In this document: piece by piece, positions 297 through 56,802 of the stretch
Layout: every line of letters begins with the position of its first letter
Position numbering within the stretch: position 1 is the first letter of the stretch
Origin: Escherichia phage A51.2
Length of the DNA: 64,000 nucleotides
Sequence record: ON286973
Strand: one strand, 5' to 3'
Made by a program: the position numbers and the translations under genes
The notes under the pieces: model-generated
What the model saw: the letters and a program-made list of their open reading frames with translations, nothing else
Told to the model about the DNA's origin: nothing
The model's database searches: none

Positions 297-647
297 CTAA
301 CCAGTTGTTGACATCCGAATAACTTCTTCTGGTGGCAAAACTTTGGAAAATGTGCATCTTTTACCTCTCCCTTGTGTGGATGTTTCAACCACCCCTGCAC
401 ACTCTAAAGTTTTAACGCACGCTGCTGCTTTTGTTTTCTTTATCCCAACATCTGCTGCAATTTTCCTTGTGCTGGGTGTGAAGCGTGAATTTCCTCCAAG
501 CTTATACCAGTTGTGCAGGTAGCAGTATACGATCTTGTCATACAAGTCAAGAACAACAACCTCTCCAGTTGTGTCATTCAAAACTTTTGACATAGACAGT
601 ATTTCAAGGGGGACTTTAAGATATAGCAGCTTATCCCCATCTTTCAT
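297..647 (-). CDS. Hypothetical protein, possible winged-HTH DNA-binding protein
   Basis: 116-aa ORF; basic C-terminal half resembles an HTH; no recognisable catalytic motif. Confidence 0.4.
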   Translation of the reverse strand: MKDGDKLLYLKVPLEILSMSKVLNDTTGEVVVLDLYDKIVYCYLHNWYKLGGNSRFTPSTRKIAADVGIKKTKAAACVKTLECAGVVETSTQGRGKRCTFSKVLPPEEVIRMSTTG

Positions 648-694: not shown

Positions 695-1249
695 TTACTC
701 CCCGCTGTCAATAGCAAAACTCATTGCAATACGGTATGCCTCTTCTAATGGTAAGAGTCTCCCCCACACATCCCAACCGACATCAAGCTGCCTGCCAAAC
801 AACTGTTGTGTGGTTCCGTGAGCATGACCGAACAGTTGGACTGATCCGTGAGGCTTTCTGTTCCACTTTGCAAATTGGTAATGGCTCATACAGATCAAAT
901 TCTTGTTGTGGCGAAGCTCGTAATAATCTACAACCTCATGACCGAACTCTTTCATAATTCTGACAGTCGTCCTTGTGTCATGGTTGCCACGAACAAGAAT
1001 AATATGTCCGTTCAACATATTTAGAATATCTGGAAGTAAGTTGTTGATATTCTTATCATTAGTGCACGCAATATCTCCCAAGTGGAACACAGTGTCTGCA
1101 GGTGACACAACAGAGTTCCACTCGGCGATGATTCCCGCATTCATACTGTCAAGATTGTGATCATACTGAGATCTGTGTTTTTGACATGAATCGAACTCCA
1201 TGACCCGCTGGTGGAGAAAGTGTGTGTCGCTTGTTACAAAGTATTTCAT
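695..1249 (-). CDS. Calcineurin-like metallophosphoesterase (Ser/Thr phosphatase / polynucleotide 3'-phosphatase-like)
   Basis: Motifs MKYFVTSDTHF (D-x-H), HLGDI (GDxxD-like), VRGNHD (GNH[DE]); start refined to ATG at 1249, 8 nt after the upstream gene's stop. Confidence 0.8.
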   Translation of the reverse strand: MKYFVTSDTHFLHQRVMEFDSCQKHRSQYDHNLDSMNAGIIAEWNSVVSPADTVFHLGDIACTNDKNINNLLPDILNMLNGHIILVRGNHDTRTTVRIMKEFGHEVVDYYELRHNKNLICMSHYQFAKWNRKPHGSVQLFGHAHGTTQQLFGRQLDVGWDVWGRLLPLEEAYRIAMSFAIDSGE

Positions 1250-1256
1250 ACATTCC

Positions 1257-1664
1257 TCATTTAAGTTTAATGCAGTTTTTAAGTTGGCGTTCCATACGAT
1301 CCACAACCTCGTCTGAAGCATGAATGCTTTTATTACCGTGGCGGTTTTCAACCACGATTACGGTATAACTATACCCATAACTGATTGCCATGTCAATATA
1401 TTTTTGCACATATTTTTCTTTTGTAAACGTATTACTTACCACGATACGGTCGTATCCCATACGCATCATATCTTCTACGTTATCTTTGCACCATTTTGCT
1501 GCAAGTGTGACTTTACTTGCATCCCAGTTGTAATTTCCATCATCGTCGTACCAGAACATGTCGTTCTCAAAATGTGGATACAGACCCTCTAAAGATAGCG
1601 CATTTGCCAGTGTTGATTTGCCAGACCCTGGTAGACCACGCACGATATATAGCATTTTAGACAT
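1257..1664 (-). CDS. P-loop polynucleotide 5'-kinase-like protein (T4 Pnk kinase-domain-like)
   Basis: Walker A GLPGSGKST near the N-terminus, then IVVSNTF resembling the T4 Pnk kinase core; start refined to ATG at 1664 preceded by GGAGGG. Confidence 0.6.
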   Translation of the reverse strand: MSKMLYIVRGLPGSGKSTLANALSLEGLYPHFENDMFWYDDDGNYNWDASKVTLAAKWCKDNVEDMMRMGYDRIVVSNTFTKEKYVQKYIDMAISYGYSYTVIVVENRHGNKSIHASDEVVDRMERQLKNCIKLK

Positions 1665-1724
1665 AGTGACCCTCCGTTTTAATTTCAACGATAGTATACC
1701 TAACTGTTTTGTTAATTTCAAGTG

Positions 1725-1730
1725 TTGACA
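1725..1730 (+). promoter_or_regulatory. TTGACA -35-like hexamer in the divergent intergenic region between the minus kinase gene and the plus ligase gene
   Basis: Read directly; the -10 element is weak, so the promoter call is tentative. Confidence 0.3.
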
Positions 1731-1764
1731 CTAGGTTATTTGTGTGGCAGGATAGACTGACAAA

Positions 1765-2700
1765 ATGACAAATGAGGAACGTATGATGAAGTATTTTAAT
1801 GCAGACGACCTAGTTGACAAAGGTCTTGTAACCAGTAGGTATTACCCAGATCTCGGGTTAAAGATCTATAAATATGCTAGAAAAGTATTTTACAACAATT
1901 TATGGCATTTGTCCCCTCGTTTACTGGAGTGCCGAGGCATTGTTGTAGGTAATGAAGGAAATGTTGTGGCATGGCCCTTCACAAAAGTGTTTAACTTGGG
2001 AGAAAACTCCACCAACCTGCCTGACAATAAGCTTGTGACTGCGGTAGAGAAAAAGAACGGATTCCTTGGTGTGGTATCATCTCATAAAGGTGACCTATTG
2101 TTCTCAACAACCGGGTCTCTTGATTCTCCATATTGTAACCTTGCAAAGGAAACCATCCAAGAGCAATGTGGTAATTTAGATCTTATCAAGAAGGTTATGG
2201 GCAATGAAAACATGACATTCATGTTTGAAATTTGTCACCCTTCAGATCCGCATATTGTTCAAGAAGACCATGGCGCATATTTGATAGGTTGCAGATATAA
2301 TGATTCTGGAATAATGCTACCAGAAGCAGCTTTAGATGGGATTGCCAAATACCTTGGTGCAAAACGTCCTCACACTGTGCGTGAAATCCCGTTCAGCTAT
2401 GCAAAAGAATTAGCCGCAGAAACAAGGGGCGAAGGGTATATGATCCGTAAGCCTTACTACCCTTATGACCTGCAGCTGAAGATCAAGTCTCCATACTACC
2501 TGGCACGGAAGGCCGTAATGAGGGGTAAAGCTTGGAAGATTTGGGATGATGATATCTTTAAACGTGTTGACGAAGAGTTTTACGGCATGGTAAACTTCAT
2601 TCGTAACAATTACACAGAAGATGTGTGGAACTGCCTCCTGGAGCAGGAACGCCGTGAGATACTTGATTACTATTTCCACAACGAGAACTATATGCAATGA
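1765..2700 (+). CDS. Putative RNA ligase / nucleotidyltransferase (K-x-[DN]-G motif I)
   Basis: 311-aa ORF with VEKKNGFLG resembling the covalent nucleotidyltransferase lysine motif; divergent from the kinase/phosphoesterase pair. Confidence 0.45.
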   Translation: MTNEERMMKYFNADDLVDKGLVTSRYYPDLGLKIYKYARKVFYNNLWHLSPRLLECRGIVVGNEGNVVAWPFTKVFNLGENSTNLPDNKLVTAVEKKNGFLGVVSSHKGDLLFSTTGSLDSPYCNLAKETIQEQCGNLDLIKKVMGNENMTFMFEICHPSDPHIVQEDHGAYLIGCRYNDSGIMLPEAALDGIAKYLGAKRPHTVREIPFSYAKELAAETRGEGYMIRKPYYPYDLQLKIKSPYYLARKAVMRGKAWKIWDDDIFKRVDEEFYGMVNFIRNNYTEDVWNCLLEQERREILDYYFHNENYMQ

Positions 2701-3047
2701 AGAAGTTGATTGTGTGGCTGGATGACTTGAGAGATCCGTCAAATTATGGGCTCCCAGACGCTATTTGGCTAAAGAATTCCTCCGAGTTTATAGATTTTAT
2801 TAACGATAGGGGAAAGCTCTACAGACGCGTTTCTGAGTGGCACATGGACAACGACCTTGGAGAGGTGTTCGAAGGGTACGATTGCCTATCTATGTTGGAG
2901 GAAAAATTTGTATTTGGTAAGCCCCCTGTAGTTGACAACGTGAAGATTTTCGTGCATACTTCTAACCCATCAGCGGCTCGTAAATTCATGCTTGCAGCTG
3001 ACTCGTTTAAAAAGTTTGGAATAGAGATTAAACAAAACATCTACTGA
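2697..3047 (+). CDS. Hypothetical protein
   Basis: 116-aa ORF overlapping the upstream stop (ATGA); sits immediately upstream of the Sir2-like gene. Confidence 0.45.
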   Translation: MKKLIVWLDDLRDPSNYGLPDAIWLKNSSEFIDFINDRGKLYRRVSEWHMDNDLGEVFEGYDCLSMLEEKFVFGKPPVVDNVKIFVHTSNPSAARKFMLAADSFKKFGIEIKQNIY

Positions 3048-3055
3048 GGACACTT

Positions 3056-3817
3056 ATGCGACGACTGATTATTATCTCCGGTGCTGGTTTGAGCGCTGAA
3101 TCTGGTATTCCCACTTTCCGATCTGGTAGCACTGCAATGTGGGAGAATTTCAGCATCGATGAGGTGTGCAACATCCACACCTTTGCCAAGAACTACTACA
3201 AGGTGCATGACTTTTACAATGCACGTCGTGTAGCTCTAGGCGGTGTTGAGCCTAACCTTGCACATCTTCGGATCGCTGAGTGGTATTCCCGCTGGTCTGG
3301 TCGTGTGATCAACCTTACCACCAATGTAGATGATTTGCTGGAGCGTGCGGGTGTAAAACATGAAGATATTTTACATGTTCACGGGTATTTGCCAGAAATA
3401 GTCTATGAGGACGATGAAGGAAGTGACGTCATTAAGGACATTGGATACTCTGAGGTAGATGCAGGAAAGTATACCTGGGTTAAACCTAATGTGGTGTTCT
3501 TCGGAGAAGTAGCTCCGAAGTATACAGACATGTATGACCTGTTGACTTCTCTTACAAGCAATGATATGGTTATCCTTGTAGGGTGTTCCAACACAGTTAT
3601 CAATTTTAACTGGGAGCTATTCCCTGCCTGCAATAAGGGAACCAAACTACTGATCGTTAATAAATACGACTCACAGCATCTAGAGGAGAATGGCATTTCA
3701 CGTAGTGATATTTACCAGTATGAGGATCGCGGCATCCCAGTTTGGTTTAACGGTGCGGTTGATGCCTTCTCTGATAAAACATTCATTGAGACCGTAGAAA
3801 ACTTTATGGAACTTTAA
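3056..3817 (+). CDS. Sir2-family (sirtuin-like) NAD-dependent protein
   Basis: N-terminal Rossmann motif GAGLSAESGIPTFR matches the canonical sirtuin GAG(I/V)SxxSGIPxFR; HG dipeptide at LHVHG; no Zn-ribbon cysteines. Confidence 0.8.
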   Translation: MRRLIIISGAGLSAESGIPTFRSGSTAMWENFSIDEVCNIHTFAKNYYKVHDFYNARRVALGGVEPNLAHLRIAEWYSRWSGRVINLTTNVDDLLERAGVKHEDILHVHGYLPEIVYEDDEGSDVIKDIGYSEVDAGKYTWVKPNVVFFGEVAPKYTDMYDLLTSLTSNDMVILVGCSNTVINFNWELFPACNKGTKLLIVNKYDSQHLEENGISRSDIYQYEDRGIPVWFNGAVDAFSDKTFIETVENFMEL

Positions 3818-3830
3818 AAGGAGACCTTTA

Positions 3831-4544
3831 ATGCTGAATACTAAATTAATTGACAACCTGGAAAAACTGTCCCAACCTGAAAACTACCTTTGGTCTGCCA
3901 ACTGGGTGGAAAACTGGAACCGTGTGGCAGCTAAAGTGAAAAAATCATACACACCGTTCGAATTACAGCTTAGCTTCATTGAGGAAGAGTTCAATGAAGT
4001 TTTGGAAGAGCTGGAAAAAGGGGATGGTGGAGATCACCTGCTAAAAGAGGCCTGCGATCTTCACGTTGTCACAAGTTATGCCGCTTATCTTGTTAATGAC
4101 AATCACGAAAAGTGGTCAAACCTGTTTGATAATCCACGAGGTCTTAAGTTCAAGATCGGTGAGTTCTATGATACACTGATCGCTGCGAAAAACACCTCTA
4201 AGCAAAGAGCATCCGCTTACCGCTTAGCAGAGTTGTCAACAGCTTTGCTGTTCCAGCTTCGCGGCGATGTGTGCGGGATGATGCGTAAGGTTATCAAATC
4301 GAATGACAGCAAGTTTGCACGGGTCAACCATCTACGGTATTCACACGGTGCCAGTGCAGATATGCCTGCTGAACAACTCATCGAGTTGGAGATTAAAGAT
4401 CTTGAGCGACGCTTTGATGGTCGATATGAAGGTTTTGTTGCTAAGGAAGAATTCTACAACGGTAATAAAGTTATCATATTCCTTGACAGTAAAGGTAAGA
4501 TCATGAAGCCTTCGAGCTTCAAGGATGTAACAGAGTATATTTAA
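3831..4544 (+). CDS. MazG-like nucleoside triphosphate pyrophosphohydrolase (putative)
   Basis: EEEFNEVLEELEKGD ... EACDL fits the MazG E-x-x-E ... E-x-x-D metal-binding pattern. Confidence 0.5.
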   Translation: MLNTKLIDNLEKLSQPENYLWSANWVENWNRVAAKVKKSYTPFELQLSFIEEEFNEVLEELEKGDGGDHLLKEACDLHVVTSYAAYLVNDNHEKWSNLFDNPRGLKFKIGEFYDTLIAAKNTSKQRASAYRLAELSTALLFQLRGDVCGMMRKVIKSNDSKFARVNHLRYSHGASADMPAEQLIELEIKDLERRFDGRYEGFVAKEEFYNGNKVIIFLDSKGKIMKPSSFKDVTEYI

Positions 4545-4550
4545 CAACAT

Positions 4551-4576
4551 AGCCGGGATTACCCGGCTTTACTTGT
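4551..4576 (+). terminator. Intrinsic terminator-like hairpin AGCCGGG-ATTA-CCCGGCT followed by TTTACTTGTTG
   Basis: Read directly, immediately after the stop at 4544. Confidence 0.5.
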
Positions 4577-4607
4577 TGTGGAAAGTATGCAAGTGAGGCA
4601 GATAGTT

Positions 4608-4916
4608 ATGTACAAGCACTCTAGAGATCTTGAAAACGATGCTGTGTTTGGGGATCAGATGAAAGAGTTGGTTAAACTCATAGGCAGGATAGAGGATAAG
4701 TTTGACACTAAGATCTACATCGACAGCAAAGTATTCAACCACAAAATATGGACAAATCTGTGTGTTGGACTACATGGAGATAAAGATGTGGTAAATTTAG
4801 TTGTAATTAAGTTCATAGTGTGGCAGAATAAAACTATAAATTATTACGATCCACATCTGCTTGTTTACCCGATAAAAGACCTATTAGATAAGGAGGACTG
4901 CAATGCCGTTATTTAA
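4608..4916 (+). CDS. Hypothetical protein
   Basis: ORF; start refined to ATG 4608 with GTGAGG upstream. Confidence 0.4.
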   Translation: MYKHSRDLENDAVFGDQMKELVKLIGRIEDKFDTKIYIDSKVFNHKIWTNLCVGLHGDKDVVNLVVIKFIVWQNKTINYYDPHLLVYPIKDLLDKEDCNAVI

Positions 4917-5172
4917 TCTTGCTAAACCTGTAGAAGCACACCAGTTTGACGGAAGCTCTTCATCAGTATCTGATCTGCAACGGTGGATTGATACAGGTGT
5001 GTTTACATCGTCACCTGTTCGGACCAGAGATCTTCGCCGTATGTGTGAGCTTGTAGAGCCGTTTGGTAACCTAGTCTTGCACCAGGGTGATTGGCTTGTT
5101 GATTTTATGGGGGACTGGTTGGTAATGAGTAAAGAAGAGATGTTTAAAATTTTTAAGGAAGAGGTAGAGTAA
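4903..5172 (+). CDS. Hypothetical protein
   Basis: 89-aa ORF, tightly packed with neighbours. Confidence 0.4.
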   Translation: MPLFNLAKPVEAHQFDGSSSSVSDLQRWIDTGVFTSSPVRTRDLRRMCELVEPFGNLVLHQGDWLVDFMGDWLVMSKEEMFKIFKEEVE

Positions 5173-6455
5173 TGCATCAAATCAAAACAACACTGTACGC
5201 ACTGAACAAAGATGGCAGCTACCAACAGTGGAAAGTATTCACGGATGGTGATAAGGTTATCGTAGAGTTTGGCAAGCTTGATGGTAAACTGCAATACAAA
5301 GAGACGATCTGCACACCTAAGAACGTGGGTCGCGCCAATGAGACTACAGCTGAGCAACAGGCCGAGCTGGAAGCGATCAGTAAGTGGGAAAAACAGGTCC
5401 GACTAGGGTACGTGGAGAGTATGGAAGATTGTGAGCAAGGTGTTGATCTTTTACCAATGTTAGTGCATGACTACCTGAAGCGTGGCAAGGCACTTAAATT
5501 ACCTTGCTGGATCTTGCGTAAGTTAGATGGCCTTCGTCTACTTGTTGTTTTCCAGAATGGTGAGCCTAAATTTATTTCCCGTGGTAATAAATCCTACCCT
5601 ATTCAAGGAAAGCTTCTGGAGCAACTTCGCTCTTTCCACCTAACCACCGGGATTAAACAGCTCGACGGAGAGCTCTATATTCATGGTCTGCCTCTGCAGA
5701 AAATAGTGTCTCTTGCTAAACGGTGGCGCACACAGGAAGAAATTCAGGCCGAGATCGATAAAGACTACGAGGCAGATAAAAAACGCCGTCAGGCTGCGAT
5801 TAAGGCAGGTTTAGCAACATACAAAAACTTCAACAAGATGGATATTCCTGTTGATGTTGATCCTGTTCGTGATGATTTGCGTTACGGAGGGTACTGCAGC
5901 TACGACCTAGAGTATCATATTTTCGATATCCCTAGCGATAAGGTGTGGTGGGATCCTGAAACAGAGTCTGGTCGCTGTAAGGATCTTATGGAGGCAAACG
6001 GTGCTATTACTTCTTTGATGCTTGATCATATTAAGGTTGTTGATGCAGAGCTTGCATATACGGTTGATCGGTGCGAAGAGTCTGTTGGTATATTTATGTC
6101 TGAAGGATATGAAGGTACCATTATGCGTAACTTCTGCGGTAAATATGAGTATGGTCAGCGAACATCTGAAGCATTGAAATGGAAAAAGTTCAACGACGCA
6201 GAGGTGAAAGTTATTGACGTTGAGAAAGATAAGAATGATGAAGGTGTTCTTATCTGTGTTGACAAGGAAGGTGTTGTTGTTAAAATGAAGATGAAAGGCA
6301 CGCACGAGGAGCGTAGCTATGACAGGATGCAGGAAATGATCGGCAAGTTTGTCACCTTCAAATATCAAGCAAGGACAGAAGACAACAACTACCAATTCCC
6401 TGTCGGTATCTGCGTCCGAAATGTTAACCCAGACACTTGGGAGGTTCTGGAATGA
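5172..6455 (+). CDS. ATP-dependent DNA ligase
   Basis: Motif I K-x-D-G-x-R present as RKLDGLR; size (427 aa) fits phage ATP-dependent ligases. Confidence 0.7.
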   Translation: MHQIKTTLYALNKDGSYQQWKVFTDGDKVIVEFGKLDGKLQYKETICTPKNVGRANETTAEQQAELEAISKWEKQVRLGYVESMEDCEQGVDLLPMLVHDYLKRGKALKLPCWILRKLDGLRLLVVFQNGEPKFISRGNKSYPIQGKLLEQLRSFHLTTGIKQLDGELYIHGLPLQKIVSLAKRWRTQEEIQAEIDKDYEADKKRRQAAIKAGLATYKNFNKMDIPVDVDPVRDDLRYGGYCSYDLEYHIFDIPSDKVWWDPETESGRCKDLMEANGAITSLMLDHIKVVDAELAYTVDRCEESVGIFMSEGYEGTIMRNFCGKYEYGQRTSEALKWKKFNDAEVKVIDVEKDKNDEGVLICVDKEGVVVKMKMKGTHEERSYDRMQEMIGKFVTFKYQARTEDNNYQFPVGICVRNVNPDTWEVLE

Positions 6456-6579
6456 TGTAGGATGGTTTAGTAGGTAACGGTAGCCAATTGAATGATGGTT
6501 TTTCAATTGGCACCTACATAACCACACTATGCAGTGTTGTTGATCGGGTTAGTTATGAGCAAACTGGAGAGTATGAAAA

Positions 6580-20382: not shown

Positions 20383-20661
20383 ATGAGCTGCGAAAAATCT
20401 TTTTTCATCATCATTTACGGTAAGGATAACTGCCCACATTGTGTCAGAGCAAAAGAATTTGCAATCAGCAAAGGTCTGCCTTTTGTATATAAGACACTTG
20501 GCGAGGGCTACACAAAAGAAGAGCTTATTGAGAAGTGCAGTCCAATTGTCCCCAGAACGTTGCCGCAGATCTTCTTAGAAAGCGATCTTGACAGTGTCCA
20601 TATAGGCGGTGCCGACGATTTCATCTCTTTTGTTAAGAATGGTTTTGGAGAGAAAAAGTGA
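20383..20661 (+). CDS. Glutaredoxin/NrdH-like thiol-disulfide redoxin
   Basis: CPHC redox motif in IIIYGKDNCPHCVRAKEF. Confidence 0.8.
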   Translation: MSCEKSFFIIIYGKDNCPHCVRAKEFAISKGLPFVYKTLGEGYTKEELIEKCSPIVPRTLPQIFLESDLDSVHIGGADDFISFVKNGFGEKK

Positions 20662-22796
20662 AAGTTGTAAAACGGGACGGTAGAGAAGAGTTCTATAACG
20701 GAATTAAGGTGATCAAGGCGGCAGAGTCCGCCTTACTTGAGTCTGGACATACTGAAGAAGAAGCTTACCGGATCGCCTGCGCGGTTAATGAAGTTGTTGC
20801 TAACAATCTACCAACCGACCAGTGCACGATCTCTGTAAAAAATATCCATATCCTTGTTGAAGATGCTCTTATGGATATGGGTTTAAAATGTGCAGCCAGA
20901 GAATACATCCAGTATAGACAGACAAGAGATAATAACAGAGAGGCAGGTGGAAAACTGCTTGCAGATATTAGTGGCTTCTTGGATCGAACTTGTGATGAAT
21001 TTACAAAAGAAAACGCAAATAAGCCTACTAATCATGTACACACTCATCGCGACCTGCTTGCAGGTATTCTTAGCAAACACCTTGCATCAACACAGATCCT
21101 GCCAGACCGTGTCTCCGAAGAGCACAATAAAGGATTCATCCATGTGCATGATCTTGACTACTTGATCAGTCCGTTAACAAACTGTTGTTTGGTAAATTAT
21201 CCAGATATGTTGGAAAACGGATTCAACATTGGTAACGCCCATGTCAGTAAGCCGAAGTCAATAGGGGTTGCAACAACAATCCTTAGCCAAATCTCTAGTG
21301 CGGTAGCTAGTGCTCAATATGGTGGTCAGACTATGAGCCATATTGATCATTATCTGGCACAGTATGCTGAAGCAACCTATGAGAAGAACCTTAAATTTTG
21401 CCAGGAACATTGGTTGCCGGATGCTGAAACTGTTGCAATGCAAATGACAGATAAAGACGTATTTGACAGCATGCAGACTTTGCTCTATCAAATCAACACG
21501 TTAACTTCTGTCAACGGGCAAACTCCATTCATCACATTGAGTTTAGGACTGGATACCTCGGTCTTTGGTAGAATGATTACCAAAAACTACCTGAAAGTCC
21601 ACAAAATGGGTCTTGGTGAAGAACGTATCACACCTGTGTTCCCTAAAGTGCTGTTCTTCCTGGAAGAGGGTGTCAACATGAACCCTGGGGATCCTAACTA
21701 TGATTTGAAACGATTAGCTCTGGAATGCTGTGCAGAACGTATCTATCCTGACTTCGTATCTGTACCACTAAATAGAAAAGTGACAGGCTCGACAGATGGC
21801 AAAGTAACTAGCATGGGTTGCAGGAGTTTTCTTAGCAAATACAATGACTTGGAAACAGGCGAGGAGAAATACCTTGGCAGATTTAACTTAGGCGTTGTTA
21901 GCCTTAACCTGCCAATGATTGCGGCAAAAGCTAAGACGGAAGGTGTTGATTTCTTTGCAGTTCTTGACGAATACTTGGATCTTGCATACGAGGCTCACCT
22001 TGTAAGGGTTAACCGTCTAAAAGGAACAAAGGCAGGGCAGAACCCCATCATGTGGTGTGAAGGCGCTCTTGCTCGCCTGGATCCTGAAGAAAGTATTGAT
22101 AAACTCTTCTATGACGGGTACGCTTCCATCAGCATTGGGTACATTGGTGTGTATGAAACCTGTCAGATTTTGGGCAGAGAAGGTGACAAGGCTTTAGCTC
22201 TTGGAATCCTTCAGCACATGAGAGATGCTTGTGAGCGATACAAGAAGGAAAGTAGACTAGCATTTAGCTTGTACGGCACTCCTTCTGAGAGTCTATGCTA
22301 TAAAGCTGCAACCTGTCTGGATCGTGAATATCCAGAAGTGTTAAAGCACGAGCATGAATATCTCACCAACAGTTTCCATCAGCCAGTATGGATCAATAGC
22401 TCTCCTTTTGATAAGTGGGAGTATGAGGAAGGTTTTGCTATGATCTCCTCCGGTGGCAACATCGGATACGTAGAGACACCTAACCTGAAAAACAACCTTG
22501 ATGCTTTAGAGGCTCTTGTTGACTTCGGGTATAAACACATTATGTATTTTGGTATTAACCAACCTGTGGATAAATGTCTCAAGTGTGGTTTCTCTGGTGA
22601 GTTCAGTGCAACAGCTAAAGGGTTCTGCTGCCCTGCGTGCGGATGCCACGATGAACAATATATCTCAGTGATCCGAAGAGTGTCTGGCTATCTCTCCAGC
22701 CCGAACAGTAGGCCGTATAACACAGGTAAACAAGCAGAGGTTATCGAACGTGTTAAACATGTTGGGAATGTAGACTGTTGTCCGTTGAGTAAATAA
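20658..22796 (+). CDS. nrdD: Anaerobic ribonucleoside-triphosphate reductase (class III, NrdD)
   Basis: C-terminal glycyl-radical motif RRVSGYL and Zn ribbon CLKCGF ... CPACGC. Confidence 0.9.
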   Translation: MKVVKRDGREEFYNGIKVIKAAESALLESGHTEEEAYRIACAVNEVVANNLPTDQCTISVKNIHILVEDALMDMGLKCAAREYIQYRQTRDNNREAGGKLLADISGFLDRTCDEFTKENANKPTNHVHTHRDLLAGILSKHLASTQILPDRVSEEHNKGFIHVHDLDYLISPLTNCCLVNYPDMLENGFNIGNAHVSKPKSIGVATTILSQISSAVASAQYGGQTMSHIDHYLAQYAEATYEKNLKFCQEHWLPDAETVAMQMTDKDVFDSMQTLLYQINTLTSVNGQTPFITLSLGLDTSVFGRMITKNYLKVHKMGLGEERITPVFPKVLFFLEEGVNMNPGDPNYDLKRLALECCAERIYPDFVSVPLNRKVTGSTDGKVTSMGCRSFLSKYNDLETGEEKYLGRFNLGVVSLNLPMIAAKAKTEGVDFFAVLDEYLDLAYEAHLVRVNRLKGTKAGQNPIMWCEGALARLDPEESIDKLFYDGYASISIGYIGVYETCQILGREGDKALALGILQHMRDACERYKKESRLAFSLYGTPSESLCYKAATCLDREYPEVLKHEHEYLTNSFHQPVWINSSPFDKWEYEEGFAMISSGGNIGYVETPNLKNNLDALEALVDFGYKHIMYFGINQPVDKCLKCGFSGEFSATAKGFCCPACGCHDEQYISVIRRVSGYLSSPNSRPYNTGKQAEVIERVKHVGNVDCCPLSK

Positions 22797-22806
22797 GGAA
22801 AGAGGT

Positions 22807-22843
22807 GGAGAGCAAGGATGCTCTCATTTTTTTTTTTGTTTTT
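22807..22843 (+). terminator. Rho-independent terminator GGAGAGCA-AGGA-TGCTCTC plus an 11-T tract
   Basis: Read directly after the nrdD stop. Confidence 0.8.
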
Positions 22844-22844
22844 A

Positions 22845-22873
22845 TTGACTTCTATTCCTCTTTTCTATAGTAT
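22845..22873 (+). promoter_or_regulatory. Sigma70-like promoter, TTGACT-17bp-TAGTAT
   Basis: Read directly, immediately downstream of the terminator. Confidence 0.5.
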
Positions 22874-22911
22874 GCAATATAAAGTGAATAGCGGAAGGGT
22901 CTGGTCTGGTA

Positions 22912-23844
22912 ATGAGAAGACTAACAACCGAAGAGTTTATAGAAAAAGCTCAGACTATACATGGTGACAAATATGATTACTTCAAAGTGGAGTATAAAAA
23001 CAACAAGACACCTGTGTGTATAATTTGTCCTGAGCACGGTGAGTTCTGGCAAACCCCTGTGGCACATGCTTTCAAGAATCATGGTTGTCCAAGGTGTGGT
23101 GGGTCAGCGAAAAAGAACACTGAAGAGTTCATAAAAGAGGCTATGGCTGTTCATGGGGACAAGTACGATTACTCATTAGTCAAATATGCGAACATGAGAA
23201 CGCCTGTAAAAATTGTTTGCCCTGAACACGGTGTGTTTGAACAATACCCTGAAAACCACTTATACCAAAGAAACGGCTGCCCAGAGTGCTATGACTTAAG
23301 ACGTGGGCAAAGTCAAGCGTTAACCCATAAGGAGCACGCTGCAATTATCCACAAAGCCAACCCAGACATAGAAATATTAGAGAAAATTGCCAATGATAAC
23401 ACAAAAGTGCAATGTAGGTGCAAAATTTGTGGGTATAAGTGGTCTGCTAAACCTAATAACCTAAAAAGTGGTCGTGGCTGCTGTAAATGCGCACAAAATG
23501 GATTCTTATCTCATGAGTACGGTAAACTCTACATTATGGTTGATGACTTAGAAGTGCCAACACTTATGAAAATCGGTGTATGCGTTAAAATGCACAGGAG
23601 GAAAAATGAGGTGCTTAACAGTGCTCGTAAATCTGGCGCAGGTGTCCACACTCTTCACGTAGTAAAAACATGGAGCGGATCAACTCAAAACATGGTAGAT
23701 TTAGAAAAATCTGTGCATAAGGCCTTGAGCAAGTATAAAATAAACTTTCCTGTAAAATTTGACGGTAGCACTGAGTTTTTCTACTACAGGCCTGAAGTGT
23801 TTGACACGGTAGAAGAGGTATACAAGAAGATTTGTGGTAAATGA
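22912..23844 (+). CDS. Putative free-standing homing-endonuclease-like protein
   Basis: Two N-terminal repeats HGDKYDY ... CPEHG ... GCP.C, and a C-terminal GKLYIMVDD ... KIGV segment resembling GIY-YIG-like (T5orf172-type) modules; inserted between nrdD and nrdG. Confidence 0.4.
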   Translation: MRRLTTEEFIEKAQTIHGDKYDYFKVEYKNNKTPVCIICPEHGEFWQTPVAHAFKNHGCPRCGGSAKKNTEEFIKEAMAVHGDKYDYSLVKYANMRTPVKIVCPEHGVFEQYPENHLYQRNGCPECYDLRRGQSQALTHKEHAAIIHKANPDIEILEKIANDNTKVQCRCKICGYKWSAKPNNLKSGRGCCKCAQNGFLSHEYGKLYIMVDDLEVPTLMKIGVCVKMHRRKNEVLNSARKSGAGVHTLHVVKTWSGSTQNMVDLEKSVHKALSKYKINFPVKFDGSTEFFYYRPEVFDTVEEVYKKICGK

Positions 23845-55928: not shown

Positions 55929-56468
55929 TCAACACTTTTTGTACTCTACTACAACCACATCAATATCTGTGGTTGCAAGATTAATTACATCTTCTACATG
56001 TTCCCACTTTAGACCGCCAATACCGCATCCAATTTTAGGAATGTAGAACGGCAATGACACACCTTTGAATACCTCGTTGACTCGCTCAAAACCTTTCATG
56101 ATTGAGAAGTATTCAGCATTGGGCCCTGGGTAGAACTGGGTATACAGGTTGATTCCATATACGACCCTGTTCTTGGCAAAATGCTCCCAACAAGAAAACA
56201 TACCCAGCTTGTCTAGATTACCATAAGCAGTTTCTTTGTCGGCTGCCAGTGCTTGAGGGAACTCACGGGCAATATCTTTCGCTATACCTGCACCCATTGT
56301 GTGAAAGCAGTTACAACCGTGGATCATGTGGCCTGACCCTTTCTTGAAAATGGAGATTAGATCTCCACCTACAGTATCAATAATCACGGTATGCCAGCTC
56401 CTCTTCCGCAATTTCAAAAAACTCAGTCCAGCACTGTGGCATATTGGAGTTGCCGAAGTGGCTTTCAT
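55929..56468 (-). CDS. Macro-domain protein (DarG-like ADP-ribosyl hydrolase fold, putative)
   Basis: GDLISIF ... HMIHGCNCFHTMGAGIAKDIAREFP fits the macro-domain GD ... H-x-C-N ... G-x-G-(I/V)-A pattern; start uncertain (ATG 56468 or GTG 56486) and overlaps the upstream ORF by over 90 nt. Confidence 0.55.
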   Translation of the reverse strand: MKATSATPICHSAGLSFLKLRKRSWHTVIIDTVGGDLISIFKKGSGHMIHGCNCFHTMGAGIAKDIAREFPQALAADKETAYGNLDKLGMFSCWEHFAKNRVVYGINLYTQFYPGPNAEYFSIMKGFERVNEVFKGVSLPFYIPKIGCGIGGLKWEHVEDVINLATTDIDVVVVEYKKC

Positions 56469-56802
56469 AGTAAAGGTTCTCACCACTTGGAAGATAGAAA
56501 TCTGTTACCTCATAGAATCCACAATCGTCGCACTCACCTTCTTCAAACTTGGCCTCAACCTTAATACCGAGGAAGGTGAAAAGTTTATGGATATCTTCAG
56601 TTTCGAACTCCCAGTGAATGTTGTTTTCCGCATCGGTGTAGAACTGGATCAGCAGACCCTTGTCCAGTTTACCAAAATACTCTGTGAAGTAACTTCCTTC
56701 CCAGAAATCTTTATGACAAATAATATCCATGCGTTTGCCCATAATAATGGTGTGAGCGTTTTGGGCATCGTCACGAATCAGTTTTGGCATTTCATAGATC
56801 AT
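56377..56802 (-). CDS. Hypothetical acidic protein
   Basis: 141-aa ORF; 3' end overlaps the macro-domain ORF in another frame. Confidence 0.4.
   Translation of the reverse strand: MIYEMPKLIRDDAQNAHTIIMGKRMDIICHKDFWEGSYFTEYFGKLDKGLLIQFYTDAENNIHWEFETEDIHKLFTFLGIKVEAKFEEGECDDCGFYEVTDFYLPSGENLYYESHFGNSNMPQCWTEFFEIAEEELAYRDY

What the first reader, a model, noticed from the sequence alone, without database searches (positions are those of the whole stretch)
2697..4544. Phage-encoded sirtuin (Sir2) flanked by a small unknown gene and a MazG-like pyrophosphohydrolase
The Sir2 Rossmann motif GAGLSAESGIPTFR is unambiguous, but the protein lacks the usual zinc-ribbon cysteines. Sir2 domains in bacterial immunity act as NAD+-depleting effectors; a phage-borne Sir2 in an operon-like block with a 116-aa unknown gene and a MazG-like enzyme may manipulate NAD+ or nucleotide pools or modify host proteins. 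The function is not predictable from sequence.
Basis: partly seen in the sequence, partly recalled or inferred. Interest (0 to 1): 0.65.

Follow-up and report, generated by a model that had tools for sequence, protein, structure and literature searches.

The report
Phage sirtuin inside RNA-repair gene cassette
An rV5-type E. coli phage carries an intact but zinc-less sirtuin inside a small operon of RNA-repair genes; this arrangement and its predicted role (NAD+-dependent clean-up of broken tRNA ends) have already been described computationally, but nobody has tested it.

Summary
The three ORFs are real and at the stated coordinates. The window is a Vequintavirus (rV5-like), 99.9% identical to phage WalterGehring. 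The sirtuin (3056-3817) keeps every NAD+/catalytic residue and the class-III Y-x-x-R pair. It has no zinc-ribbon cysteines, and this holds for all 120 closest relatives. The "unknown" 116-aa gene is a cREC domain (Pfam PF20274, a predicted cyclic-phosphate phosphoesterase). The "MazG-like" gene belongs to the all-alpha NTP-pyrophosphatase superfamily but is structurally closest to dimeric dUTPases. The real unit is larger than the finding: RNA ligase-cREC-sirtuin-NTPPase form one tight operon ending in a terminator, next to a divergent polynucleotide kinase and metallophosphoesterase. In 52 related sirtuin loci, 13 carry this ligase/kinase cassette and 28 (T5-like, including T5 itself) carry an RNA-repair HAD phosphatase instead. 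The sirtuin matches no defence-type Sir2 model; its closest structures are CobB/SIRT5 deacylases. Exactly this neighbourhood, with phage V5 as prototype, was published in 2022 with the prediction that the sirtuin removes RNA 2'-phosphates like Tpt1/KptA. I found no experimental test. Verdict: genuine, sensible, already known as a prediction; moderately interesting because it is directly testable.

The parts
695..1249 (-). Calcineurin-like metallophosphoesterase (184 aa), the candidate 2',3'-cyclic/3'-phosphate end-healing enzyme. It is the second gene of the divergent unit.
   Evidence: Pfam Metallophos_2 (28.4 bits, cutoff 27) and Metallophos (26.9 bits, cutoff 21.5); phrog_547 phosphoesterase E=1e-52. 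DxH, GD, GNHD and GHxH motifs are readable in the translation. Start taken at the MKYFVTSDTHF methionine, as annotated in relatives. Homologues are present in 12 of the 13 cassette loci; the 13th, L034, is a short fragment.
1257..1664 (-). P-loop polynucleotide 5'-kinase-like protein (135 aa), first gene of the divergent unit.
   Evidence: Pfam AAA_33 E=6e-10; phrog_2071 E=3e-55 and phrog_505 polynucleotide kinase E=5.5e-10. Annotated 'polynucleotide kinase' in WalterGehring. GLPGSGKST P-loop in the translation.
1665..1764 (.). Divergent intergenic control region between the kinase unit and the ligase operon.
   Evidence: A sigma70-like site on the minus strand at 1721-1693 (TTGAAA-17-TATACT, 10/12) coincides with a PhagePromoter prediction in phage Gotham. 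On the plus strand there is a perfect TTGACA at 1725-1730, but the scan found no acceptable -10, so the ligase-operon promoter is unresolved.
1765..2700 (+). T4 Rnl1-type RNA ligase (311 aa), first gene of the four-gene operon.
   Evidence: Pfam RNA_lig_T4_1 E=1e-14, 55 bits against cutoff 28.3; phrog_562 E=2e-66. A K-x-N-G nucleotidyl-transferase motif (EKKNG) is in the translation. The stop TGA overlaps the cREC ATG.
2697..3047 (+). cREC domain protein (116 aa), a divergent receiver-fold domain predicted to be a metal-independent cyclic-phosphate phosphoesterase.
   Evidence: Pfam PF20274 E=1.3e-14, 55.1 bits against cutoff 27; phrog_1479 E=7.5e-35. D9, D10, D13, D51, D53 and the VH(T/S)SNPSA motif are invariant in 8 homologues down to 49% identity. 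The domain was defined and its activity predicted in PMC7824862.
3056..3817 (+). Zinc-less class-III-like sirtuin (253 aa), predicted to be catalytically competent.
   Evidence: Pfam SIR2 E=5.5e-27. Invariant in 120 relatives: GAGxS, F21/R22, Y54-x-x-R57, N90, D92, H109-G110 and FFGE; T89 replaces the canonical Gln of TQNID; there are no Zn-site Cys. AF2 pLDDT 90.7, with strands 110-118, 124-128 and 142-146 where the Zn ribbon sits in canonical sirtuins. Foldseek top hits are E. coli CobB, TM 0.73-0.83. It scores below all NCBIfam CobB cutoffs, e.g. 122 against 243 bits.
3831..4544 (+). All-alpha NTP pyrophosphohydrolase superfamily protein (237 aa), dimeric-dUTPase-like. Last gene of the operon.
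4551..4578 (+). Intrinsic-terminator-like hairpin (AGCCGGG-ATTA-CCCGGCT) followed by a T-rich tract, which closes the four-gene operon.
   Evidence: Terminator scan: 7-bp stem with 6 GC pairs. The same element is annotated by ARNold in phage Gotham. Sequence read.
5172..6455 (+). ATP-dependent DNA ligase (427 aa), a conserved downstream neighbour of the sirtuin, probably in a separate transcription unit here.
   Evidence: Pfam DNA_ligase_A_M and DNA_ligase_OB_2; phrog_114 E=2e-83. It lies downstream of the sirtuin in all 13 cassette loci: immediately adjacent in the Mydo-like ones, up to about 1.5 kb away in L044 and L009.

Best explanation
The finding is the centre of a phage RNA (tRNA) break-repair cassette. 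A divergent promoter region drives two units. One encodes a polynucleotide 5'-kinase and a metallophosphoesterase, which heal RNA ends. The other is a translationally coupled operon: Rnl1-type RNA ligase, cREC, sirtuin, and an NTP pyrophosphatase. The sirtuin derives from CobB-like class-III sirtuins. It retains a complete NAD+-binding and catalytic apparatus but has lost the zinc site. Most likely mechanism (inferred, as proposed by Iyer et al. 2022): host metal-independent anticodon or toxin RNases cut tRNA and leave 2',3'-cyclic phosphate and 5'-OH ends. cREC opens the cyclic phosphate to a 2'-phosphate, the kinase phosphorylates the 5'-OH, and Rnl1 seals the break. The sirtuin then uses NAD+ to take the leftover 2'-phosphate off the RNA. 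The phosphate oxygen attacks C1'' of NAD+ and nicotinamide leaves. The His109-activated ADP-ribose 2''-OH then attacks the phosphorus, releasing 2'-OH RNA and ADP-ribose-1'',2''-cyclic phosphate. This is the same two-step chemistry a sirtuin performs on an acyl-lysine carbonyl, and the same net reaction as the unrelated enzyme Tpt1/KptA. cREC, or the unlinked macro-domain protein, could then linearise or remove the ADPr cyclic phosphate. The third gene is most simply the phage's dUTPase-type nucleotide-pool enzyme, riding on the same transcript rather than acting as an obligate partner of the sirtuin. What is shown here: gene identities, operon anatomy, conservation of catalytic residues, and conserved linkage to RNA-end enzymes. 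What is inferred: the RNA substrate, the reaction and the physiological trigger.
For: Operon anatomy: an ATGA overlap between the ligase and cREC genes, 8-nt and 13-nt gaps each with a Shine-Dalgarno sequence, and a terminator 6 nt after gene 3's stop. The catalytic residues of the sirtuin and the acidic residues of cREC are invariant, and the sirtuin fold is predicted with high confidence. In a census of 52 loci encoding this sirtuin clade (44-95% identity), 12 complete loci plus one fragment carry phosphoesterase, Rnl1, kinase, DNA ligase and NTPPase, with cREC detected in 9. A non-overlapping set of 28 T5-like loci, including T5 itself, carries a HAD_SAK_2 'Swiss-army-knife RNA repair' phosphatase (PF18143, E=4e-20) 0.02-0.6 kb downstream of the sirtuin's stop; in T5 it lies in the same promoter-to-terminator unit. 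So two unrelated sets of RNA-end-processing partners converge on the same sirtuin clade. The clade is essentially phage-restricted: one hit across representative genomes of 185,579 bacterial and archaeal species. It scores below the CobB equivalog cutoffs, so it is a specialised lineage rather than a borrowed housekeeping CobB. The phage tRNA gene cluster (Arg, Tyr, Lys, Thr, Ile, Pro) lies about 2.3-3 kb beyond the cassette in near-identical genomes. The published prediction for this exact neighbourhood is in PMC9503650 section 3.7.3. The mechanistic parallel between sirtuin and Tpt1 chemistry is established enzymology recalled from my own knowledge, not a tool result.
Against: There is no biochemical or genetic test of any phage sirtuin of this clade, or of any cREC domain, in the searched literature. 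Every characterised relative by sequence or fold is a protein-lysine deacylase. The clade also keeps the Y-x-x-R pair that class-III enzymes use to bind succinyl/malonyl carboxylates, and the FGE loop. The protein is acidic (pI 4.8; clade median 5.1, maximum 6.05), which is unlike what I would expect of a free-standing RNA-binding enzyme. The kinase, metallophosphoesterase and Rnl1 already form a complete T4/Pnkp-style heal-and-seal pathway that leaves no 2'-phosphate, so a 2'-phosphotransferase is not obviously needed. Seven ECO340P2-like loci and four others carry the sirtuin with no recognisable RNA enzyme nearby. The 52 loci represent only a few phage lineages, so the counts overstate independence. 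One phage-like contig places the sirtuin beside Nampt and NADAR instead. That fits any NAD+-consuming role.
Confidence: 0.45

Rival explanations
1. The sirtuin is what its closest relatives are: an NAD+-dependent protein-lysine deacylase (deacetylase, desuccinylase or demalonylase), or a weak protein ADP-ribosyltransferase, acting on host or phage proteins. In a variant that fits the context, it keeps the catalytic lysines of the flanking RNA and DNA ligases, or other repair enzymes, free of acyl groups. On this reading the position among repair genes reflects co-expression or regulation, not a nucleic-acid substrate.
For: The best sequence and structure matches are E. coli CobB, SIRT5 and Sir2Af. 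The class-III Y54-x-x-R57 pair, the FFGE loop and the catalytic His are invariant. Acidic pI resembles CobB. The sirtuin lies between an RNA ligase and a DNA ligase in all 13 cassette loci. All biochemically characterised PF02146 members act on proteins (general knowledge).
Against: The zinc ribbon that shapes the peptide cleft in canonical sirtuins has lost all its cysteines across the clade, and the canonical Gln of TQNID is replaced by Thr. The protein scores far below the CobB equivalog cutoffs. The host already has CobB. This reading does not by itself explain why two unrelated sets of RNA-end phosphoesterases (cREC/kinase/ligase versus HAD_SAK_2) co-occur with the same sirtuin clade.
Confidence: 0.3
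2. This is the first reader's idea: the sirtuin manipulates the NAD+ pool or NAD+-derived immune signals, as an NADase or by consuming or mimicking ADPr signals, in the manner of defence-system Sir2 effectors or as a counter-defence. The MazG-like enzyme would then act on nucleotide alarmones or pools.
For: It is an intact NAD+-consuming fold. In other phages the same clade lies next to Nampt and NADAR (L059), or within about 5 kb of an NAPRTase/PRPP-synthase pair and a NADAR gene (L003). Gene 3 is an NTP pyrophosphatase.
Against: No PADLOC defence SIR2 model matches at E<=0.01, and no defence-type Sir2 appears among the top 50 structural matches. A phage gains nothing obvious from depleting NAD+ that its own enzymes need. 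Linkage to Nampt is equally expected for any enzyme that releases nicotinamide. This idea does not explain the ligase, kinase, cREC or HAD partners.
Confidence: 0.08
3. This rival concerns gene 3 only. The 237-aa protein is an integral partner of the sirtuin pathway, for example hydrolysing the pyrophosphate bond of ADPr-cyclic-phosphate or another by-product in the way Nudix does in jumbo-phage versions. On this reading it is not an independent dUTPase-type housekeeping enzyme.
For: It is the last gene of the same operon in rV5-type phages. A 25-35% identical homologue is kept 2-3.8 kb downstream of the sirtuin in all 13 cassette loci, and the Mydo-type copy passes the Pfam PRA-PH cutoff. Iyer et al. 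list MazG as part of the neighbourhood. Jumbo-phage versions have Nudix in the equivalent role.
Against: In Mydo-like phages it is separated from the sirtuin by the DNA ligase and further genes. It is absent from the 28 T5-like and 7 ECO340P2-like sirtuin loci. The closest folds are dUTPases, and no other dUTPase is annotated in these genomes although they encode ThyA and two ribonucleotide reductases.
Confidence: 0.25
4. The sirtuin is an inactive remnant or a purely structural or binding protein.
For: Loss of the zinc-binding cysteines.
Against: All NAD+-binding and catalytic residues are invariant across 120 sequences of 48-98% identity, which implies purifying selection on catalysis. The small domain is modelled confidently without zinc. 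There are 856 relatives at E<=1e-5, and the 120 best are almost all full length.
Confidence: 0.02

Closest known systems
Type-2 phage sirtuin RNA-repair neighbourhood of Iyer, Burroughs, Anantharaman and Aravind 2022 (PMC9503650, section 3.7.3; prototypes Escherichia phage V5 and Proteus phage Mydo)
   Same: It has the same gene set: sirtuin, T4-like RNA ligase, cREC, nucleotide kinase, MazG-superfamily pyrophosphatase and calcineurin-like phosphoesterase. It comes from the same phage genus: the window is 95-99.9% identical to rV5-type genomes over the 4.8-kb stretch I queried. I also re-derived the T5/SP15 type-3 neighbourhood with a HAD 'Swiss-army-knife' phosphatase.
   Different: Nothing substantive; this is that system.
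Tpt1/KptA RNA 2'-phosphotransferase (ART superfamily)
   Same: It is the proposed functional analogue: NAD+-dependent removal of an RNA 2'-phosphate via ADP-ribosylation of the phosphate and transesterification to ADPr-1'',2''-cyclic phosphate, operating downstream of an RNA ligase.
   Different: The fold and ancestry are unrelated (Rossmann-type sirtuin versus ART fold). The activity is not demonstrated for any sirtuin. The phage protein is acidic.
E. coli CobB and human SIRT5 (class III sirtuins, protein-lysine deacylases)
   Same: They are the nearest relatives by sequence (E~4e-21) and by fold (TM 0.73-0.83). They share GAGxS, N/D, the catalytic His, FGE and the Y-x-x-R acyl-carboxylate-binding pair.
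   Different: The phage protein has no zinc-binding cysteines, Thr instead of Gln in TQNID, and a divergent segment after the GxS motif. It scores well below the NCBIfam CobB cutoffs, is phage-restricted and is linked to RNA-end enzymes.
T4 PseT(Pnkp)/Rnl1 and bacterial Pnkp-Hen1 tRNA break-repair systems
   Same: The same heal-and-seal logic: 5'-kinase, 2',3'-phosphoesterase and an Rnl1-type ligase that counter anticodon nucleases. The calcineurin-type phosphoesterase resembles the bacterial Pnkp phosphatase module.
   Different: The kinase and phosphatase are separate proteins, and there is no Hen1. Two extra predicted enzymes (cREC and the sirtuin) have no counterpart in the T4 pathway.
Defence-associated SIR2 NADases (ThsA, DSR1/2, SIR2-HerA, SIR2-pAgo)
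   Same: They share the sirtuin superfamily fold and use of NAD+.
   Different: There is no detectable match to PADLOC defence models. Those proteins are multi-domain or multi-component NAD+-depleting effectors encoded by the host. This is a single-domain phage protein of the canonical PF02146 family.
Dimeric dUTPases / all-alpha NTP-PPase superfamily (with MazG, HisE/PRA-PH, T4 gp56)
   Different: Identity to any solved member is 8-14%, and no sequence-level PDB hit was found. It carries an extra C-terminal beta-hairpin with an invariant GKIMKPSSF. Its substrate is unknown.

Membership tests
Sirtuin family (Pfam PF02146) | Score above the Pfam gathering threshold, with the full-length Rossmann-type domain covered | tested here: met
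   95.3 bits against a cutoff of 24; profile positions 1-178 of 180 matched.
Sirtuin family (Pfam PF02146) | NAD+-binding and catalytic residues: GAGxS, F/R of the cofactor loop, N and D of (T)QNxD, the catalytic His of the HG motif, and the FGE loop | tested here: met
   G9-A-G-x-S13, F21, R22, N90, D92, H109-G110 and F148-F149-G-E151 are invariant or nearly invariant in 120 relatives. The canonical Gln is replaced by an invariant T89.
Sirtuin family (Pfam PF02146) | Cys4 zinc-ribbon small domain (CxxC...CxxC) | tested here: not met
   CobB's Cys positions align to non-Cys residues, and 0 of 120 relatives have a CxxC in that segment. The three-stranded module itself is still predicted with pLDDT around 95.
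Class III sirtuins (CobB/SIRT5 deacylases) | Y-x-x-R pair in the acyl pocket | tested here: met
   F53-Y54-N55-x-R57-R58 aligns to CobB FYNARR. Y54 and R57 are invariant in 120 sequences.
Class III sirtuins (CobB/SIRT5 deacylases) | Scores at or above NCBIfam CobB / protein-deacylase curated cutoffs (equivalog level) | tested here: not met
   Best result is NF001753 at 122.4 bits against cutoff 243; NF040867 CobB scores 102.7 against 320.
Class III sirtuins (CobB/SIRT5 deacylases) | NAD+-dependent lysine deacylase activity | not testable with these tools
   Requires an enzyme assay.
Tpt1/KptA RNA 2'-phosphotransferase (functional class) | Homology to the Tpt1/KptA ART fold | tested here: not met
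   The only Pfam hit is SIR2 and all structural neighbours are sirtuins. Any resemblance would be functional analogy only.
Tpt1/KptA RNA 2'-phosphotransferase (functional class) | NAD+-dependent transfer of an RNA 2'-phosphate to give ADPr-1'',2''-cyclic phosphate | not testable with these tools
   Predicted in PMC9503650; no experiment found.
cREC (Pfam PF20274, cyclic-phosphate processing receiver domain) | Score above the Pfam gathering threshold | tested here: met
   55.1 bits against a cutoff of 27; profile positions 2-83 of 88 matched.
cREC (Pfam PF20274, cyclic-phosphate processing receiver domain) | Conserved receiver-type catalytic aspartates, and no histidine-kinase partner | tested here: met
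   D9, D10, D13, D51 and D53 are invariant in 8 homologues. The neighbours are RNA-repair genes and no histidine kinase is present.
cREC (Pfam PF20274, cyclic-phosphate processing receiver domain) | Cyclic phosphodiesterase activity | not testable with these tools
   Stated to be experimentally uncharacterised in PMC9503650; nothing newer was found.
All-alpha NTP pyrophosphohydrolase superfamily (MazG / PRA-PH / dimeric dUTPase) | Pfam MazG or PRA-PH match above the gathering threshold | tested here: inconclusive
   The window protein scores 13.8 bits on PRA-PH against a cutoff of 21.3. However, 17/17 family members hit PRA-PH (best E=4.8e-6) and 15/17 hit MazG, and the Mydo-type homologue passes at 24.1 bits.
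All-alpha NTP pyrophosphohydrolase superfamily (MazG / PRA-PH / dimeric dUTPase) | Metal-binding ExxE...ExxD motif on a helical bundle | tested here: met
Phage/bacterial RNA heal-and-seal repair cassette (Pnkp/Rnl1 type) | Co-located 5'-kinase, 2',3'/3'-phosphoesterase and Rnl-type ligase | tested here: met
   AAA_33/PNK-like kinase, Metallophos and RNA_lig_T4_1 lie within 2 kb. All three are conserved together in 12 complete loci.
Defence-type SIR2 NADase effectors | Match to the SIR2 models of known defence systems | tested here: not met
   No PADLOC family matches at E<=0.01.

The most novel reading that the evidence does not exclude
The sirtuin is a nucleic-acid-directed enzyme: an NAD+-dependent RNA 2'-phosphotransferase, or more broadly an RNA-phosphate ADP-ribosyltransferase, that evolved from a CobB-like protein deacylase by losing the zinc module. 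It would work with cREC as a new class of cyclic phosphodiesterase in a yeast/plant-style (2'-phosphate-leaving) tRNA repair route, in rV5-like, Mydo-like and, with a HAD phosphatase, T5-like phages. That would be the first sirtuin with an RNA substrate and a non-homologous replacement for Tpt1. The idea is already published as a prediction, so the novelty would lie in demonstrating it.
Probability: 0.35. Interest if true: 0.75.

Novelty: already known. Interest (0 to 1): 0.4.

Why it matters
If the predicted chemistry is right, sirtuins, which are textbook protein deacylases, would gain an RNA substrate, and Tpt1-type 2'-phosphate removal would have a second, independent evolutionary solution. 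It would also show that common E. coli phages, including the model phage T5 and the rV5 group used in phage therapy collections, carry a second kind of tRNA-repair counter-defence beyond the T4 Pnkp/Rnl1 paradigm. That bears on how they escape anticodon nucleases and RNase toxins. If the protein is instead a deacylase, it would be a case of a phage rewriting host or phage protein acylation. Either answer is reachable with simple assays on tractable phages (BASEL Bas51, T5). As a genome-scan finding it is not new: the genes are annotated in GenBank and the neighbourhood and hypothesis are in print.

Tried and rejected
2. NCBIfam gave nothing for cREC and only a spurious weak PIN hit for gene 3.
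3. PADLOC gave no hit for any of the three proteins, so I rejected the defence-Sir2 analogy.
4. I looked for a canonical sigma70 promoter for the ligase operon. There is only a perfect -35 (TTGACA, 1725-1730) with no acceptable -10, so this is left unresolved.
5. Five literature searches for experimental work on phage sirtuins, cREC, T5 Sir2 or Vequintavirus RNA-repair genes returned only the two Aravind-group comparative papers. The 2026 NARP3 paper mentions only host Sir2-HerA.
6. I tried to recognise the conserved unknown neighbours of the sirtuin in ECO340P2-like phages. There is no Pfam hit, and PHROGs gives only 'unknown' plus a DNA-methyltransferase family, so there is no third RNA-repair context.
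7. I considered that the sirtuin might be a recently captured host CobB. I rejected this because identity is 27%, it is below the equivalog cutoffs, it lacks zinc, and it is phage-restricted.
8. I considered an inactive remnant and rejected it because the catalytic residues are invariant.
9. The pI analysis argues mildly against RNA binding, but it does not discriminate because the CobB fragment is acidic too.
10. One paper search failed on a term containing an apostrophe.

Full report
**1. What is in the sequence.**
The window is an rV5-like E. coli myovirus (Vequintavirus). Positions 1700-6500 are 99.9% identical to phage WalterGehring (BASEL Bas51), and 109 phage records cover at least 80% of that stretch. 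The three ORFs of the finding are exactly where stated: 2697-3047 (116 aa), 3056-3817 (253 aa) and 3831-4544 (237 aa), all on the + strand.

They are not a free-standing trio. The stop codon of an upstream 311-aa gene (1765-2700) overlaps the ATG of the 116-aa gene (ATGA). The next two junctions are gaps of 8 and 13 nt, each with a Shine-Dalgarno sequence. A 7-bp GC-rich hairpin with a T-rich tail begins 6 nt after the last stop, at 4551-4568. The same terminator is annotated in phage Gotham. Two more genes are transcribed divergently from the 1665-1764 intergenic region, at 1257-1664 and 695-1249 on the - strand.

**2. Gene identities.**
- The upstream gene is an Rnl1-type RNA ligase: Pfam RNA_lig_T4_1 at 55 bits against a cutoff of 28, and phrog_562 E=2e-66.
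- The divergent genes are a P-loop polynucleotide-kinase-like protein (AAA_33; phrog_505) and a calcineurin-like metallophosphoesterase.
Its receiver-type aspartates (D9, D10, D13, D51, D53) are invariant in eight homologues down to 49% identity. cREC is a divergent receiver fold. It is predicted, but has never been shown, to open cyclic phosphates on RNA ends or on ADP-ribose-1'',2''-cyclic phosphate (PMC7824862; PMC9503650).
- The 253-aa protein is a sirtuin: PF02146, E=5.5e-27.

**3. The sirtuin in detail.**
There are 856 relatives at E<=1e-5. The 120 best are 48-98% identical and almost all full length. Across those 120, all NAD+-binding and catalytic positions are invariant or nearly so: GAGxS, F21/R22, N90, D92, H109-G110 and FFGE. 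The class-III Y54-x-x-R57 pair, which in SIRT5 and CobB binds the carboxylate of succinyl- or malonyl-lysine, is also invariant. The canonical Gln of TQNID is an invariant Thr.

The small module is still there. AlphaFold2 (pLDDT 90.7, pTM 0.89) models strands 110-118, 124-128 and 142-146 with high confidence.

The nearest solved structures are E. coli CobB (TM 0.73-0.83, 27% identity), Sir2Af1 and SIRT5, in agreement with the sequence search. The protein nevertheless scores far below the NCBIfam CobB cutoffs, at 122 against 243 bits. It matches no PADLOC defence-system model. Pattern scanning of one representative genome for each of 185,579 bacterial and archaeal species found only one hit, on a phage-like MAG contig. 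It is acidic (pI 4.8; clade median 5.1).

In short, this is a specialised, phage-restricted, zinc-less offshoot of class-III sirtuins.

**4. Context across phages.**
I collected 52 loci encoding this clade: 49 from IMG/VR plus three from encoding contigs. I scored the neighbours by tblastn.
- **Cassette loci (13).** Twelve complete loci and one fragment carry phosphoesterase, Rnl1, kinase, sirtuin, DNA ligase and a homologue of gene 3. Where complete, these contigs are about 140-150 kb, of rV5-like, Mydo-like and related phages. cREC was detected in nine of the 13. Outside rV5-type phages, gene 3's homologue (25-35% identity) lies 2-3.8 kb downstream, beyond the DNA ligase.
- **T5-like loci (28).** These include phage T5 itself, whose T5.102 is 57% identical to the window sirtuin. 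They have none of the cassette genes. Instead, 0.02-0.6 kb downstream of the sirtuin's stop, they have T5.105. In T5 it lies in the same promoter-to-terminator unit. It is a HAD_SAK_2 "Swiss-army-knife RNA repair" phosphatase (PF18143, E=4e-20). It is mislabelled "Sir2" by one PHROG.
- **ECO340P2-like loci (7).** These share conserved neighbours with no recognisable RNA function.
- **Others (4).** Two have only DUF7415 proteins; of the other two, one has only a weak phosphoesterase match 6 kb away and one has nothing.

So two unrelated sets of RNA-end-processing genes converge on the same sirtuin clade. That is the strongest evidence for an RNA-related role. The caveats are that these 52 loci represent only a few phage lineages, and about a fifth of them lack any such partner.

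A second, weaker theme is NAD+ salvage. The MAG contig has NADAR, an unknown gene, Nampt, a second unknown gene and then SIR2. The Mydo-like locus has an NAPRTase/PRPP-synthase pair 5 kb upstream and a NADAR gene downstream. That fits any enzyme that consumes NAD+ and releases nicotinamide.

**5. Most likely mechanism.**
The kinase, phosphoesterase and Rnl1 are a classic heal-and-seal set, like T4 Pnkp/Rnl1 or bacterial Pnkp. Such sets repair tRNAs cut by metal-independent anticodon nucleases and toxins. The phage's own tRNA cluster lies 2.3-3 kb beyond the cassette in near-identical genomes and is not inside the window.

For the two extra genes I adopt the published proposal. cREC opens the 2',3'-cyclic phosphate to a 2'-phosphate. 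After ligation, the sirtuin uses NAD+ to remove that 2'-phosphate as ADP-ribose-1'',2''-cyclic phosphate. cREC or a macro domain then processes the by-product.

The chemistry is plausible. As I recall the established enzymology, a sirtuin normally lets an acyl oxygen attack C1' of NAD+ and then uses the His-activated 2'-OH to form a 1',2'-cyclic intermediate. Replacing the carbonyl by a phosphate gives the Tpt1 reaction.

What is shown here is gene identity, operon structure, residue conservation and linkage. The substrate and the reaction are inferred. I put this mechanism at about 0.45. The weaker claim, that the block is part of an RNA-repair cassette, I put at about 0.85.

**6. Rivals.**
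- **Protein-lysine deacylase (about 0.3).** This is the main rival. Every characterised relative is one, the YxxR pair and the FGE loop are kept, the protein is acidic, and the T4-style pathway needs no 2'-phosphotransferase. A context-aware variant would have it de-acylate the catalytic lysines of the flanking RNA and DNA ligases.
- **NAD+-pool or immune-signal manipulation (about 0.08).** There is no homology to defence Sir2 models and it does not explain the partners.
- **Inactive remnant (about 0.02).** The invariant catalytic set effectively excludes this.
- **Gene 3.** I favour an independent dUTPase-type nucleotide-pool enzyme. No other dUTPase is annotated in these genomes although they encode ThyA and two ribonucleotide reductases. 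Its linkage to the sirtuin is loose outside rV5-type phages. A role in breaking down ADPr by-products, as Nudix does in the jumbo-phage versions, remains possible (about 0.25).

**7. Comparison with what is known, and novelty.**
[quoted passage not shown] It lists sirtuin, T4-like tRNA ligase, cREC, nucleotide kinase, MazG-superfamily pyrophosphatase and an occasional calcineurin-like phosphoesterase. It also describes the T5/SP15 variant with the HAD phosphatase, and proposes the KptA-like role. The sirtuin is annotated in most of the GenBank records listed for this genus.

Five literature searches found no experimental test of a phage sirtuin of this clade or of any cREC domain. The finding is therefore real and correctly flagged as interesting biology, but it is already known as an observation and as a hypothesis.

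- The zinc loss is clade-wide, with the fold retained.
- The class-III YxxR pair is retained, and Gln is replaced by Thr in TQNID.
- The clade is acidic.
- Gene 3 has dimeric-dUTPase affinity and only loose linkage to the sirtuin.
- The census quantifies the contexts, including a minority without RNA-repair partners and an Nampt-linked case.

**8. Verdict.**
Novelty: already known. Interest is 0.4: a specialist would not be surprised, but an untested and mechanistically attractive prediction, a sirtuin acting on RNA, is directly testable in tractable phages. If it were demonstrated, it would merit about 0.75.

Noticed in passing
window 55929-56486 (-), best match 55932-56297: A macro-domain gene. 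It passes the Pfam Macro threshold (25.2 bits against a cutoff of 22) and is 83% identical to the 'macro domain-containing protein' of phage 241Ecol014PP. It lies about 52 kb from the sirtuin, on the other strand. It could process ADPr-1''-phosphate or O-acyl-ADPr made by the sirtuin, but it is not linked.
   Followed up: partly
just beyond window position 1 (WalterGehring MZ501111 139426-140238; L001 1-56): The phage tRNA gene cluster (Arg-AGA, Tyr, Lys-AAA, Thr, Ile, Pro) lies about 2.3-3 kb beyond the kinase/phosphoesterase end of the cassette in near-identical genomes. No tRNA lies inside the window. Replacement tRNAs and tRNA-repair genes therefore sit side by side.
   Followed up: partly
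L058 7143-7649 (phage T5 gene T5.105): T5.105 is labelled 'Sir2 (NAD-dependent deacetylase)' in RefSeq via phrog_18062, but it is a HAD_SAK_2 RNA-repair phosphatase (PF18143, E=4e-20). This is an annotation error that has propagated through T5-like genomes. The 'putative Sir2-like protein (x2)' labels in some rV5-type records may be a similar artefact.
   Followed up: partly
L058 7652-8482 (T5.106, T5.107); also L005 6975-7768: Two tandem paralogous DUF7415 proteins follow the sirtuin-HAD pair in T5-like phages. They remain next to the sirtuin even in two loci that lack the HAD gene (L005, L051). Their function is unknown.
   Followed up: no
L059 4664-8723 (phage-like MAG contig JBOFGC010000083.1): A 47%-identical sirtuin of the same clade lies in the order NADAR, a 240-aa unknown, Nampt (NAPRTase + NAMPT_N), an 85-aa ORF, SIR2, followed by EndoVII, NrdD and NrdG. 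This directly links the sirtuin to nicotinamide salvage.
   Followed up: partly
L003 1-1133 and 12214-12720 (Mydo-like Klebsiella phage contig): An NAPRTase-family gene and a PRPP-synthetase-family gene lie about 5 kb upstream of the sirtuin, and a NADAR gene about 5.5 kb downstream. The pair resembles a phage NAD+-reconstitution pair (my recollection of the NARP literature, not tested here). No such genes were seen in the rV5-type annotation.
   Followed up: no
window about 20658-23844 (+): In the near-identical WalterGehring record, the class III anaerobic ribonucleotide reductase gene is annotated as a two-piece joined CDS interrupted by a homing-endonuclease gene, with a second homing endonuclease next to it. 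Several HNH/homing endonucleases are scattered through this replication and nucleotide-metabolism arm.
   Followed up: no
window 297-647 (-): A 116-aa gene downstream of the phosphoesterase, on the same strand, is annotated 'replication initiation protein' in one relative and 'putative transcriptional regulator' in another. It could belong to the divergent kinase/phosphoesterase unit. I did not analyse it.
   Followed up: no
L004 1940-2215 (phage ECO340P2): An Acb2/Tad1-hairpin family gene (PF24729), which I take to be an anti-CBASS/anti-Thoeris signal sponge, lies about 4 kb upstream of the sirtuin in the ECO340P2-like context, where no RNA-repair partner is present.
   Followed up: no
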